Of a DNA stretch of 64,000 nt, positions 46,187-47,278 are shown one piece after another. Both the position numbers and the translations under genes were made by a program. The notes under the pieces were generated by a model. The model did no database searches, had not been told where the DNA came from, and worked only from the letters and a program-made list of their open reading frames with translations. Each line of letters begins with the position of its first letter. The first letter of the stretch is position 1. Location: assembly GCA_000165345.1 (NCBI GenBank), contig CM000434.1:768001-832000 (forward strand), written 5' to 3'.

Positions 46187-47278
46187 CTATATTTCAGCAT
46201 GCTGAGCCAATAGAGGTGGAATCTCACCCCAAGTACCAAGTGATGTAACTATAAATAATCGAGTACAAAATGAAGCAGTATATTCTCTAAGTCTATTTAA
46301 AATAACAAAGAGTGAATTAAAACCATTAATTGGAATATCAAAAGGCATATTCCTTAGGATTAAAATACAATCAGCTTTTGGCCAATTACCACCAGAATTT
46401 AATATACTATAAATCTCTCTATATGTAACTTCTTTTTCATTAGAATTATGCTTTTGTTCTACAATTCTTTGTATTTTATTTAAAAAATCTTTTGAAGAAT
46501 CACCACTTGAAAGAAAACGTAAATTAGCAGGAATTTCGTCTTCATTATTCAATAAAACTGTTAATTTACTTTCAACAATTCCATTTGGTTCAAAAATAGT
46601 AACATATTCCACTCCTAATTGTTTAAAAATACGACAAGCTTTATATAAAAGATATAATACACCATTTTCAATCACTTCTGATCCTCTAAATACAATTACC
46701 ATATGTTTTGGAACTTTCTTTACTTTCTCTAAATTAGCTTGATCTTCTATATTTTCAAACCCTAGAACTTTCTGTAATAATTTATTTAAGTAAATAATCA
46801 ATAATAAGTTTATTTTGTTTGTATTAATAATATGAGTTAGATGATGGTTATTATTTGTTCAAGTAAATCAAGAATCAAATCAATATGAAAGATGGGAATA
46901 ATATTATAAAACTGAAAGAATTCTTCAAATAAGGATTAATATAAGGAAATCACTTTTTGAAAATTGTATTAATTTATACTATTAATCTTTTTTTCTCTCA
47001 CCCCCTTCTTTTATACCTCCTATCCATCCTTATAACTTTCCTCTTCATTTAATTTACTTCATTATTTCCTGTTTTCAGTTTTATTTCTGTTTCCCCTCTC
47101 TTTCTATCAATAATATTATTTGATTTTAACCATCTCACAATTATTAATCAACATAAATATTGATAATATATTATATCCGGTCTAATTAACTTACCTTAAT
47201 AAATGAAAAGATGAATGTAATAGCAAAAACTATCTCAAACAATATGTATTGAATTGTATTTACTATTAAAAGTAACAT
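46187..47278 (-). CDS. Possible Nus1/NgBR-like non-catalytic cis-prenyltransferase subunit, with a candidate upstream TM/signal exon (47278-47195) joined to 46771-46187
   Basis: The ORF 46187-46801 has no in-frame ATG before ...PKHMVIV (its listed start is TTG). Its N-terminus is open back to a TTATTACAG acceptor (46772). A 28-codon hydrophobic exon MLLLIVNTIQYILFEIVFAITFIFSFIK ends at a GTAAGT donor (47194) in matching phase 0. The body resembles a cis-IPTase fold lacking the DGNRR catalytic motif. The product call is weak. Confidence 0.35.

What the first reader, a model, noticed from the sequence alone, without database searches (positions are those of the whole stretch)
46772..47278. Candidate signal/TM exon and a 423-nt intron for the Nus1-like gene, whose ORF has no start codon of its own
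ORF 46187-46801 has no ATG for its first 32 codons. Its frame runs open to a TTATTACAG acceptor at 46772. 420 nt upstream, a 28-codon ATG-initiated hydrophobic exon (47278-47195, MLLLIVNTIQYILFEIVFAITFIFSFIK) ends exactly in phase 0 at a GTAAGT donor. An N-terminal membrane anchor followed by a non-catalytic cis-prenyltransferase-fold domain is the Nus1/NgBR architecture. The intron would be unusually long for this genome.
Basis: inference. Interest (0 to 1): 0.5.

Follow-up and report, generated by a model that had tools for sequence, protein, structure and literature searches.

The report
Cryptosporidium Nus1/NgBR-like gene, three exons

Summary
The window is C. parvum chromosome 6, and the gene is cgd6_3480 / CPATCC_0015050 / cpbgf_6003480 on the minus strand. 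Every coordinate in the observation checks out: exon 1 47278-47195, GTAAGT donor, 423-nt intron, TTATTACAG acceptor, phase 0.

The model is incomplete. The ORF's TAG stop lies on a second GTAAGT donor. A 430-nt intron follows, then an 82-nt exon 3 (45757-45676) that ends in ...QRHGK.

All three exons, both intron phases and both exon lengths (584 and 82 nt) are conserved in five Cryptosporidium species. An environmental relative encodes the same protein as one uninterrupted ORF. GenBank holds 171-, 222- and 249-aa models, all named hypothetical or uncharacterized.

Pfam and single-sequence searches find nothing. Other methods point to NUS1:
- Family profile against vertebrate NUS1: hhalign 94 %, P 1.2e-7, with controls at background.
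- Foldseek: all six significant hits are NgBR chains.

The catalytic DGNRR motif is absent, and the RxG tail and N-terminal anchor are present.

Verdict: observation confirmed, interpretation supported but incomplete. The splicing is already known; the functional assignment looks new. I could not test for the catalytic partner.

The parts
47538..47589 (.). Cluster of three E2F-like promoter-type motifs (TTCCCGCC, TTGGCGCG/TTCGCGCG), 260-310 nt upstream of the exon-1 ATG. It lies in the gap shared with the divergent RRM gene.
   Evidence: TTSSCGCS occurs 23 times in the window against 0.39 expected. None lies in either intron. This zone is conserved three ways among C. parvum, C. ubiquitum and C. 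canis (0.53). A promoter role is inferred, not shown.
47195..47278 (-). Exon 1: ATG plus 27 codons, MLLLIVNTIQYILFEIVFAITFIFSFIK. This is the N-terminal membrane anchor.
   Evidence: It is the only Kyte-Doolittle TM-grade segment of the protein (2.16) in all five species and in P0009. AF2 predicts a helix over residues 2-30. Length, frame and phase-0 donor are conserved.
46772..47194 (-). Intron 1, 423 nt, GTAAGT...TTATTACAG, phase 0.
   Evidence: The orthologous introns are 378, 408, 143 and 136 nt. Three-way conservation falls to 0.03-0.42 inside it. No Rfam match.
46188..46771 (-). Exon 2, 584 nt: KVLGFEN...AQHAEI plus the first two bases (TA) of a split Tyr codon. It encodes the pseudo-cis-prenyltransferase domain.
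   Evidence: It is 584 nt in all five species. K47-V48-P49-x-H51 is invariant, including in the 28 %-identical P0009, and aligns to NUS1 K96-L-P98-V-H100.
46700..46702 (-). Internal in-frame ATG (Met52), used as the start by the old 171-aa annotation (cgd6_3480, Iowa II).
   Evidence: Invariant coding residues lie upstream of it, so it is not the true start.
45758..46187 (-). Intron 2, 430 nt, GTAAGT...ACTTTTTAG, phase 2. The ORF's TAG stop (46189-46187) straddles the donor.
   Evidence: The orthologous introns are 326, 460, 216 and 208 nt, all in phase 2. Conservation inside is 0.0-0.38.
45676..45757 (-). Exon 3, 82 nt: completes Tyr223, then ELWGFNIRNIEKSIVLYSHSKQRHGK and a TAG stop.
   Evidence: Located by exact peptide match to P0001. 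It is 82 nt in all five species. Substitutions fall mostly at third codon positions, e.g. 2/0/11 and 4/2/16. It is collinear with ...SEIYEVWGIDQ...QQRYGR in the uninterrupted ORFs of P0009 and P0010.
45679..45690 (-). Codons for R246-H247-G248-K249, the C-terminal RxG motif.
   Evidence: Orthologues read RHGK, RHGK, RHGK, RRGN, RHGS and RYGR. The last 22 residues align end-to-end with NUS1 272-293 ...QRLGK.

Best explanation
This is a three-exon minus-strand gene, cgd6_3480 / CPATCC_0015050 / cpbgf_6003480. Its exons are 47278-47195, 46771-46188 and 45757-45676. It encodes a 249-aa, highly divergent member of the Nus1/NgBR branch of the cis-prenyltransferase superfamily, that is, a non-catalytic accessory subunit (CPT-AS).

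**Shown**
- The exon-intron structure and its conservation.
- Specific profile and fold similarity to NUS1 rather than to catalytic DHDDS.
- Loss of the DGNRR catalytic motif.
- An N-terminal hydrophobic helix encoded by exon 1.
- A C-terminal RxG(K) encoded by exon 3.

**Inferred mechanism, by analogy with human NgBR/DHDDS and yeast Nus1/Rer2**
- The exon-1 helix anchors the protein in the ER membrane. The Lys-Lys that follows it suggests the domain faces the cytosol.
- The pseudo-enzyme domain heterodimerises with the parasite's catalytic cis-prenyltransferase.
- The RHGK tail reaches into the partner's active site to help bind IPP and Mg2+.
- This permits synthesis of the long-chain polyprenyl diphosphate that becomes dolichol, which is needed for N-glycosylation and GPI anchors.
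For: **Gene model**
- Splice sites read directly from the sequence.
- Exact match to the public 249-aa protein.
- Three exons with the same phases, and the same exon-2 and exon-3 lengths, in five species. Introns vary from 136 to 460 nt.
- Conservation peaks on the three exons only.
- Third-position substitution bias in exon 3.
- Collinear uninterrupted ORFs in environmental relatives P0009 and P0010.
- The CPATCC annotation that holds this model reports its introns as 100 % RNA-seq supported (PMC8744675).

**Family assignment**
- Family profile against PDB: the five best hits are all human NUS1, at E 0.07-0.2.
- hhalign against a vertebrate NUS1 alignment: probability 94.1 %, P 1.2e-7, score 56.6. 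The reversed control and 20 column-shuffled controls score 21.8 or less.
- Against single sequences: NUS1 84.5 % (P 7e-6) versus DHDDS 1.2 % (P 0.044).
- By Foldseek, all six hits with E <= 0.001 are NgBR chains, at E 1e-6 to 2e-5.

**Motifs**
- VPKHMVIVFRGSEV aligns to DHDDS MPKHIAFIMDGNRR (DHDDS sequence verified).
- RxG tail.
- Hydrophobic anchor.

**Context**
- Onysk et al. 2025 state that apicomplexan CPT-AS proteins have 'so far eluded detection'. They found Paramecium POC1 at HHsearch probability 92 (PMC12998183).
Against: - No Pfam PF01255 hit even at E <= 10, although vertebrate NUS1 proteins do carry it.
- phmmer against PDB finds nothing, and the profile-versus-PDB E-values are not significant on their own.
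- The AF2 model is of low to moderate confidence (pLDDT 57, pTM 0.54), and Foldseek TM-scores are only 0.40-0.48.
- The alignment register of the last third is ambiguous, and there seems to be an insertion of about 45 residues relative to NUS1.
- No catalytic partner was identified: none lies in the window, and no search capacity or paper was available for the rest of the genome.
- The family is narrow. An exhaustive phmmer of 1.84 billion representatives found only two relatives, so nothing here shows it exists in Plasmodium or Toxoplasma.
- I did not inspect RNA-seq reads directly.
Confidence: 0.7

Rival explanations
1. One reading: a 222-aa protein ending at TAG 46189-46187, with a membrane anchor and pseudo-enzyme domain but no RxG tail.
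For: The frame does stop at that TAG. This model is deposited for three isolates (CPHLJ_6g3480, CPCDC_6g3480, CHM_6g3480) and for C. canis. An unspliced intron 2 would give exactly this protein, so it may exist as a minor retained-intron isoform.
Against: The TAG overlaps a consensus GTAAGT donor in all five species. An 82-nt exon of invariant length follows in phase 2 and shows strong third-position substitution bias. P0009 and P0010 read straight through the equivalent point (...SEIYEVWG...). The RNA-seq-curated annotations use the 249-aa model.
Confidence: 0.05
2. A single-exon gene starts at the internal ATG 46702, giving a 171-aa soluble protein (the original cgd6_3480 model). The upstream hydrophobic ORF is fortuitous.
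For: This model is deposited for C. parvum Iowa II, C. hominis TU502, C. meleagridis UKMEL1, C. ubiquitum and C. ryanae.
Against: Residues upstream of Met52 are conserved as protein. K47, V48, P49 and H51 are invariant even in the 28 %-identical P0009, and they align to the NUS1 and DHDDS P-x-H motif. Exon 1 keeps its ATG, length, hydrophobicity and phase-0 donor in five species. Promoter-type motifs lie upstream of exon 1 and not in intron 1.
Confidence: 0.03
3. The protein is a true NUS1-fold pseudo-enzyme, but in Cryptosporidium it does something other than activate a cis-prenyltransferase. Examples would be a membrane scaffold or lipid-binding protein, as proposed for NgBR's other roles.
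For: No partner was identified here. The family is very divergent, carries an insertion of about 45 residues, and is missed by Pfam. In C. bovis and C. ryanae the residue after the RxG glycine is N or S rather than K.
Against: R and G of the RxG tail are kept at the extreme C-terminus in all seven full-length sequences, across about 28 % overall identity. In known systems this tail matters only for completing the partner's active site (PMC12998183). Cryptosporidium has the downstream dolichol enzymes (PPR cgd5_1340, DolK cgd2_1560; PMC9713705), so it needs a polyprenyl diphosphate source.
Confidence: 0.17
4. The similarity to NUS1 is spurious. The protein is an unrelated small alpha/beta (Rossmann-like) domain, and the terminal R-x-G is coincidence.
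Confidence: 0.05

Closest known systems
Human NgBR / NUS1 (PDB 6z1n_B, 9r08_B), accessory subunit of the DHDDS-NgBR cis-prenyltransferase
   Different: About 16-18 % identity in structural alignments and 27 % over the hhalign columns. No Pfam PF01255 hit. The protein is shorter (249 versus 293 aa) with a single N-terminal helix. It lacks the long NgBR loop 150-185. It has an insertion of about 45 residues before the terminal strand-helix. No partner or activity has been shown.
Paramecium tetraurelia POC1 (Onysk et al., FEBS J 2025, PMC12998183)
   Same: It is an alveolate CPT accessory subunit that BLAST and PSI-BLAST miss and that was found only by profile-profile search (probability 92 versus 6z1n_B). 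It is short, non-catalytic, and has an essential C-terminal RxG.
   Different: POC1 is 162 aa and has no predicted transmembrane segment. The Cryptosporidium protein is 249 aa with a clear N-terminal anchor. POC1 is experimentally validated and this protein is not.
Yeast Nus1 (PDB 6jcn), partner of Rer2 and Srt1
   Different: Nus1 is 375 aa with a longer N-terminal membrane region. It is a weaker match than human NUS1.
Catalytic cis-prenyltransferases (DHDDS, Rer2, bacterial UPPS)
   Different: MDGNRR is replaced by FRGSEV. The profile score against DHDDS is at background (P 0.044). Heteromeric catalytic subunits lack the RxG tail, whereas this protein has it.

Membership tests
Nus1/NgBR-type cis-prenyltransferase accessory subunit (CPT-AS) | Detectable homology to known NUS1/NgBR sequences | tested here: met
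   hhalign of the family profile against a vertebrate NUS1 profile gives 94.1 %, P 1.2e-7. Reversed and shuffled controls score 21.8 or less against 56.6. Against single sequences, NUS1 gives 84.5 % and DHDDS 1.2 %. In hmmsearch against PDB the top five hits are all NUS1, but at E 0.07-0.2.
Nus1/NgBR-type cis-prenyltransferase accessory subunit (CPT-AS) | Match to Pfam PF01255 (Prenyltransf), which vertebrate NUS1 proteins carry | tested here: not met
   No PF01255 hit for P0001, P0008, P0009, P0010 or the C. bovis protein, even at E <= 10. Vertebrate NUS1 proteins carry PF01255. Paramecium POC1, a validated CPT-AS, was likewise missed by BLASTP and PSI-BLAST and found only by HHsearch, so this is a limit of sensitivity rather than an exclusion.
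Nus1/NgBR-type cis-prenyltransferase accessory subunit (CPT-AS) | cis-Prenyltransferase (UPPS-like) alpha/beta fold | tested here: met
Nus1/NgBR-type cis-prenyltransferase accessory subunit (CPT-AS) | C-terminal RxG motif within the last four residues | tested here: met
   R246-H-G248-K249 followed by the stop, at 45690-45676. Other species read RHGK, RHGK, RRGN and RHGS, and P0009 and P0010 read RYGR. It aligns end-to-end with NUS1 ...QRLGK.
Nus1/NgBR-type cis-prenyltransferase accessory subunit (CPT-AS) | Loss of catalytic and substrate-binding residues (region I, DGNRR) | tested here: met
   VPKHMVIVFRGSEV aligns to DHDDS MPKHIAFIMDGNRR (DHDDS sequence confirmed identical to 6z1n_A). Family members have R or K at the Asp position. 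The role of these residues comes from established knowledge of UPPS and DHDDS.
Nus1/NgBR-type cis-prenyltransferase accessory subunit (CPT-AS) | N-terminal membrane anchor (present in NgBR, Nus1 and plant CPTBP; absent in POC1) | tested here: met
   The best 19-residue Kyte-Doolittle window scores 2.0-2.4 and lies in exon 1 in all five species. It scores 1.92 in P0009. There is no other TM-grade segment. AF2 predicts a helix over residues 2-30.
Nus1/NgBR-type cis-prenyltransferase accessory subunit (CPT-AS) | A catalytic partner (DHDDS/Rer2 type, lacking its own RxG) exists in the same organism and binds it | not testable with these tools
   tblastn with DHDDS finds no such gene in the window. 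No held paper names a Cryptosporidium cis-prenyltransferase.
Nus1/NgBR-type cis-prenyltransferase accessory subunit (CPT-AS) | RxG-dependent stimulation of polyprenyl diphosphate synthesis, or complementation of nus1 mutants | not testable with these tools
   This needs experiments.
Catalytic cis-prenyltransferase (DHDDS / Rer2 / UPPS) | Region I D-G-N-(R/G)-R motif and sequence similarity to catalytic subunits | tested here: not met
   FRGSEV occupies the place of MDGNRR. hhalign against DHDDS gives P 0.044 over 20 columns only.
Spliceosomal GT-AG introns of Cryptosporidium | Consensus donor and acceptor, conserved position and phase across species, and transcript support | tested here: met
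   Donors are GTAAGT, GTGAGT or GTATGT and acceptors are YAG, at the same codon positions and phases in five species. Transcript support is indirect: the CPATCC annotation contains this model and reports all its introns as RNA-seq supported. I did not inspect reads.

The most novel reading that the evidence does not exclude
This gene family is the cis-prenyltransferase accessory subunit of Cryptosporidium, the kind of protein reported in 2025 as having 'so far eluded detection' in Apicomplexa. It was missed for two reasons. It is too divergent for Pfam or BLAST. And most public gene models cut off the 82-nt last exon that carries the RxG tail, and often the first exon with the anchor as well.

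If so, the 222-aa and 171-aa models describe non-functional proteins. The full-length family profile would give a handle for finding the equivalent subunit in other apicomplexans.

A more speculative add-on concerns the in-frame stop that sits on the intron-2 donor in all five species. Intron retention might then switch between an RxG-less form and an active form.
Probability: 0.6. Interest if true: 0.65.

Novelty: new member of a known kind. Interest (0 to 1): 0.5.

Why it matters
Dolichol is the lipid carrier for N-glycosylation and GPI-anchor synthesis. In most eukaryotes its chain is built by a two-subunit enzyme. For apicomplexan parasites only the catalytic subunit has been recognised, and a 2025 study explicitly lists the accessory subunit as undetected and as a potentially parasite-specific drug target (PMC12998183).

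A concrete candidate in C. parvum makes that question directly testable by co-expression, yeast complementation, an RxG point mutant or a knock-down. This candidate has the right fold, a dead active site, a membrane anchor and the RxG tail.

There is also an annotation lesson. At least three incompatible models of this gene circulate (171, 222 and 249 aa). The models found for C. canis, C. ubiquitum, C. bovis and C. ryanae all lack the RxG exon, so orthology and domain pipelines see a truncated protein.

The splicing itself is not new.

Tried and rejected
- **Pfam and NCBIfam.** Scans of the 222-aa and 249-aa proteins and of relatives found no prenyltransferase family.
- **phmmer against PDB.** It returned only chance hits such as glucose dehydrogenase at E 0.02-0.03.
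- **Exhaustive phmmer of 1.84 billion representatives.** Only two relatives were found, so no link to Plasmodium or Toxoplasma could be made.
- **JGI metagenome contig scan with the family alignment.** It found nothing.
- **AlphaFold database fold search.** The library was unavailable.
- **Something hidden in the long introns.** No Rfam match and no conserved block.
- **Internal duplication of the C-terminal strand-helix unit**, as an explanation for the ambiguous register. No signal (P 0.12).
- **Catalytic partner in the window.** None.
- **Literature on a named Cryptosporidium cis-prenyltransferase or on cgd6_3480.** Nothing was found. Two key reviews were not held.
- **Merged AF2 alignment.** I decided against padding the alignment with NUS1 sequences, because the resulting model would not have been an independent test.
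Full report
**1. What the window is**

Base composition is about 30 % G+C. The joined exon-1 plus exon-2 protein is 100 % identical over its whole length to a 249-aa Cryptosporidium parvum protein, 'Uncharacterized protein cpbgf_6003480 / CPATCC_0015050'. The window is therefore C. parvum chromosome 6, and the gene is the one originally numbered cgd6_3480. It lies on the minus strand.

**2. The observation**

On the minus strand an ATG at 47278 opens 28 codons, MLLLIVNTIQYILFEIVFAITFIFSFIK, ending at 47195. GTAAGT follows at 47194-47189. 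TTATTACAG occupies 46780-46772. The next base, 46771, is the first base of a codon in the frame of ORF 46187-46801. The intron is thus 423 nt and phase 0, and the junction reads ...SFIK|KVLGFEN.

The open frame upstream of exon 2 runs back to 46858 with no ATG. The first in-frame ATG is at 46702-46700, which is Met52 of the full protein.

The arrangement is not a chance pattern in this AT-rich DNA. Of 43 GTAAGT sites in the window, only three are preceded in phase by an ATG-initiated frame of 20-40 codons, and this is the only hydrophobic one.

**3.

The TAG that ends ORF 46187-46801 overlaps a second perfect donor: GAA ATA TA|GTAAGT, with the donor at 46187-46182. The public 249-aa protein continues ...AQHAEI-YELWGFNIRNIEKSIVLYSHSKQRHGK. 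The extra peptide maps exactly to 45756-45679, behind an ACTTTTTAG acceptor.

The gene therefore has three exons:
- exon 1, 47278-47195;
- exon 2, 46771-46188;
- exon 3, 45757-45676.

Its two introns are 423 and 430 nt. The second is in phase 2, splitting a Tyr codon.

**4. Comparative support for the model**

I fetched the syntenic loci of C. canis, C. bovis, C. ubiquitum and C. ryanae. All show the same neighbours in the same order: Stk19-like, a divergent RRM gene, this gene, and a protein of about 243 aa.

The findings across all five species are:
- A 26- or 28-codon ATG-initiated hydrophobic exon ends in phase 0 at GT[AG][AT]GT.
- Exon 2 is exactly 584 nt.
- The donor is TA|GTAAGT or TT|GTAAGT.
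- Exon 3 is exactly 82 nt and ends R-x-G-x-stop.
- Intron lengths vary freely: 136-423 nt for intron 1 and 208-460 nt for intron 2.

A three-way alignment of C. parvum, C. ubiquitum and C. canis shows conservation of 0.53-0.78 on the three exons and mostly below 0.3 in both introns. Substitutions in exon 3 fall overwhelmingly at third codon positions, for example 2/0/11. Exon 1 is less constrained in sequence but keeps its ATG, length, hydrophobicity and donor phase.

Two environmental proteins, P0009 and P0010 (28-31 % identical), carry the same three parts in one uninterrupted ORF on compact genomic contigs: a hydrophobic N-terminus, the domain, and ...SEIYEVWGIDQ...QQRYGR.

Residues upstream of Met52 (K47, V48, P49, H51) are invariant even in P0009. 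This rules out the internal ATG as the true start.

**5. State of public annotation**

Three models coexist in one 90 % cluster:

| Model | Where deposited |
|---|---|
| 171 aa | Iowa II cgd6_3480; C. hominis TU502; C. meleagridis UKMEL1 |
| 249 aa | CPATCC, BGF, C. hominis UdeA01, C. tyzzeri, C. meleagridis cmbei |

All are named hypothetical or uncharacterized. The models for C. canis, C. ubiquitum, C. bovis and C. ryanae all lack exon 3. Two of them also lack exon 1. The C. bovis model uses a non-conserved donor that removes most of the anchor.

Baptista et al. (PMC8744675) state that the introns of the CPATCC annotation are 100 % supported by RNA-seq. This is indirect transcript support for both introns, because I did not see reads myself.

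The introns are outliers for the species. Published C. parvum introns have median 61, mean 82 and sd 73 nt (PMC2483917).

**6. Is it Nus1/NgBR-like?**

Simple methods say no. Pfam and NCBIfam find nothing, and phmmer against PDB gives only chance hits.

More sensitive methods agree with one another.
- A profile of seven full-length family members against all PDB sequences puts five human NUS1 entries on top, though at E 0.07-0.2.
- Profile-profile comparison with 14 vertebrate NUS1 proteins gives probability 94.1 %, P 1.2e-7 and score 56.6 over 153 columns. A reversed template and 20 column-shuffled templates never exceed 21.8.
- Against single sequences, the profile scores NUS1 at 84.5 % (P 7e-6) but human DHDDS at background (P 0.044). 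The DHDDS sequence was checked as identical to 6z1n_A.

For the fold test I kept the AlphaFold alignment free of NUS1 sequences so that the test would be independent. The second model, from nine family sequences, has pLDDT 57.1 and pTM 0.54. Its search results are:
- By Foldseek, there are six hits with E <= 0.001, and all are NgBR chains of the human complex.

The model is only moderately confident and the TM-scores are low (0.40-0.48). I rate the fold as supported, not proven.

**7. Functional signatures**

- **Catalytic motif.** Where catalytic enzymes have P-K-H-I-A-F-I-M-D-G-N-R-R, this protein has P-K-H-M-V-I-V-F-R-G-S-E-V, and the family has R or K at the Asp position. Like NgBR, it cannot be catalytic. 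The role of those residues comes from established knowledge of UPPS and DHDDS.
- **RxG tail.** The extreme C-terminus is R-H-G-K. R and G are kept in all seven full-length sequences. The last 22 residues align end-to-end with NUS1 272-293...QRLGK.
- **Membrane anchor.** The only transmembrane-grade segment is the exon-1 helix.

According to Onysk et al. (PMC12998183), the RxG tail of the accessory subunit is essential for activity of all heteromeric cis-prenyltransferases. The same paper says the apicomplexan accessory subunits 'have so far eluded detection'. Its authors found Paramecium POC1 only by HHsearch, at probability 92. A 2026 review lists POC1 as the only protist CPT-binding protein. 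A reconstruction of Cryptosporidium glycosylation lists polyprenol reductase and dolichol kinase but no cis-prenyltransferase subunits.

**8. Most likely mechanism**

The shown facts are the structure of the gene, the homology and fold, the dead active site, the anchor and the tail.

By analogy with NgBR/DHDDS and Nus1/Rer2, I infer the following.
- The exon-1 helix holds the protein in the ER membrane. The Lys-Lys that follows it suggests a cytosolic domain.
- The domain pairs with the parasite's catalytic cis-prenyltransferase.
- The RHGK tail completes that enzyme's IPP/Mg2+ site, enabling long-chain polyprenyl diphosphate synthesis and hence dolichol synthesis.

My estimates are about 0.95 for the gene model, about 0.85 for membership of the NUS1 branch, and about 0.65 for the accessory-subunit function. 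The combined figure is 0.7.

**9. What remains open**

- **No catalytic partner could be sought.** None lies in the window, the large protein searches were exhausted, and no offered collection holds Cryptosporidium genomes.
- **The family is narrow.** It comprises Cryptosporidium plus a few environmental sequences.
- **The register of the last third relative to NUS1 is ambiguous.** The most economical reading is an insertion of about 45 residues (helix 179-200 plus a loop) before the terminal strand-helix-RxG.
- **Why both introns are so long in the C. parvum group is unexplained.** There is no conserved block and no Rfam hit.
- **An in-frame stop sits on the intron-2 donor in all five species.** Intron retention would therefore give an RxG-less protein. 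Whether that is used is unknown.

**10. Verdict**

The splicing is already in public annotation, so on that score the finding is ordinary.

The functional identification of this 'uncharacterized protein' as a divergent Nus1/NgBR-type subunit appears not to be in the annotation or in the literature I could search. It bears on an explicitly stated gap, so I score the finding as of moderate interest.

Noticed in passing
window-wide; e.g. 2540-2555, 7215-7224, 27837-27855, 47538-47589, 50174-50189, 51503-51512: The E2F-like motif TTSSCGCS occurs 23 times against 0.39 expected, often as palindromic or paired copies in intergenic gaps. It looks like the main promoter-type signal of this genome region.
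   Followed up: partly
window 51520-51615 (+): An ATG-initiated 32-codon open frame (MTKGLKRKALNLFLLIRKDSREAKKKRKEKKH) ends in phase 0 at GTAAGT. It starts 8 nt after the palindrome TTGGCGCCAA at 51503-51512. It is a candidate first exon of another spliced gene.
   Followed up: no
window 47850-48570 (+): In the divergent neighbour, ORF 48232-48570 holds only the C-terminal half of an RRM (Pfam positions 38-70 of 70) and has no ATG. Orthologues are annotated as 207-247 aa. This gene also seems to be spliced and shares the 47538-47589 motif cluster.
   Followed up: no
window 48865-49515 (-): An Stk19-like ORF (PF10494, E 3e-7) begins at TTG. Orthologue models differ in length (214 versus 272-273 aa), which suggests another inconsistent 5' gene model.
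   Followed up: no
L002 3001-3222 (C. bovis) and L004 2718-2932 (C. ryanae): The public C. bovis model (P0006) splices after codon 11 at GTAATT and loses most of the hydrophobic helix. The donor conserved with C. ryanae, and matching the C. parvum group in position and phase, is GTATGT after codon 26. The C. ryanae and C. ubiquitum models start at the internal Met.
   Followed up: yes
L005-L008 (JGI samples 3300030529, 3300031231, 3300031128, 3300031122): Environmental relatives (280 and 285 aa, about 45 % G+C by eye) encode the whole protein without introns. On L006 a convergent 87-aa ORF lies 78 nt downstream, so this is compact genomic DNA from an unidentified organism, possibly a gregarine-like apicomplexan.
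   Followed up: partly
window 46187-46189 and the equivalent sites in L001-L004: An in-frame stop sits on or just after the intron-2 donor in all five species (TA|GTAAGT or TT|GTAAGT). Retention of intron 2 would produce the 222-aa protein without the RxG tail. This may simply follow from the donor consensus.
   Followed up: no
window 45758-46187 and 46772-47194: Both introns are about five standard deviations longer than the published C. parvum mean, and are also long in C. ubiquitum and C. canis, but measure 136-216 nt in C. bovis and C. ryanae. They contain no conserved block and no Rfam match.
   Followed up: partly
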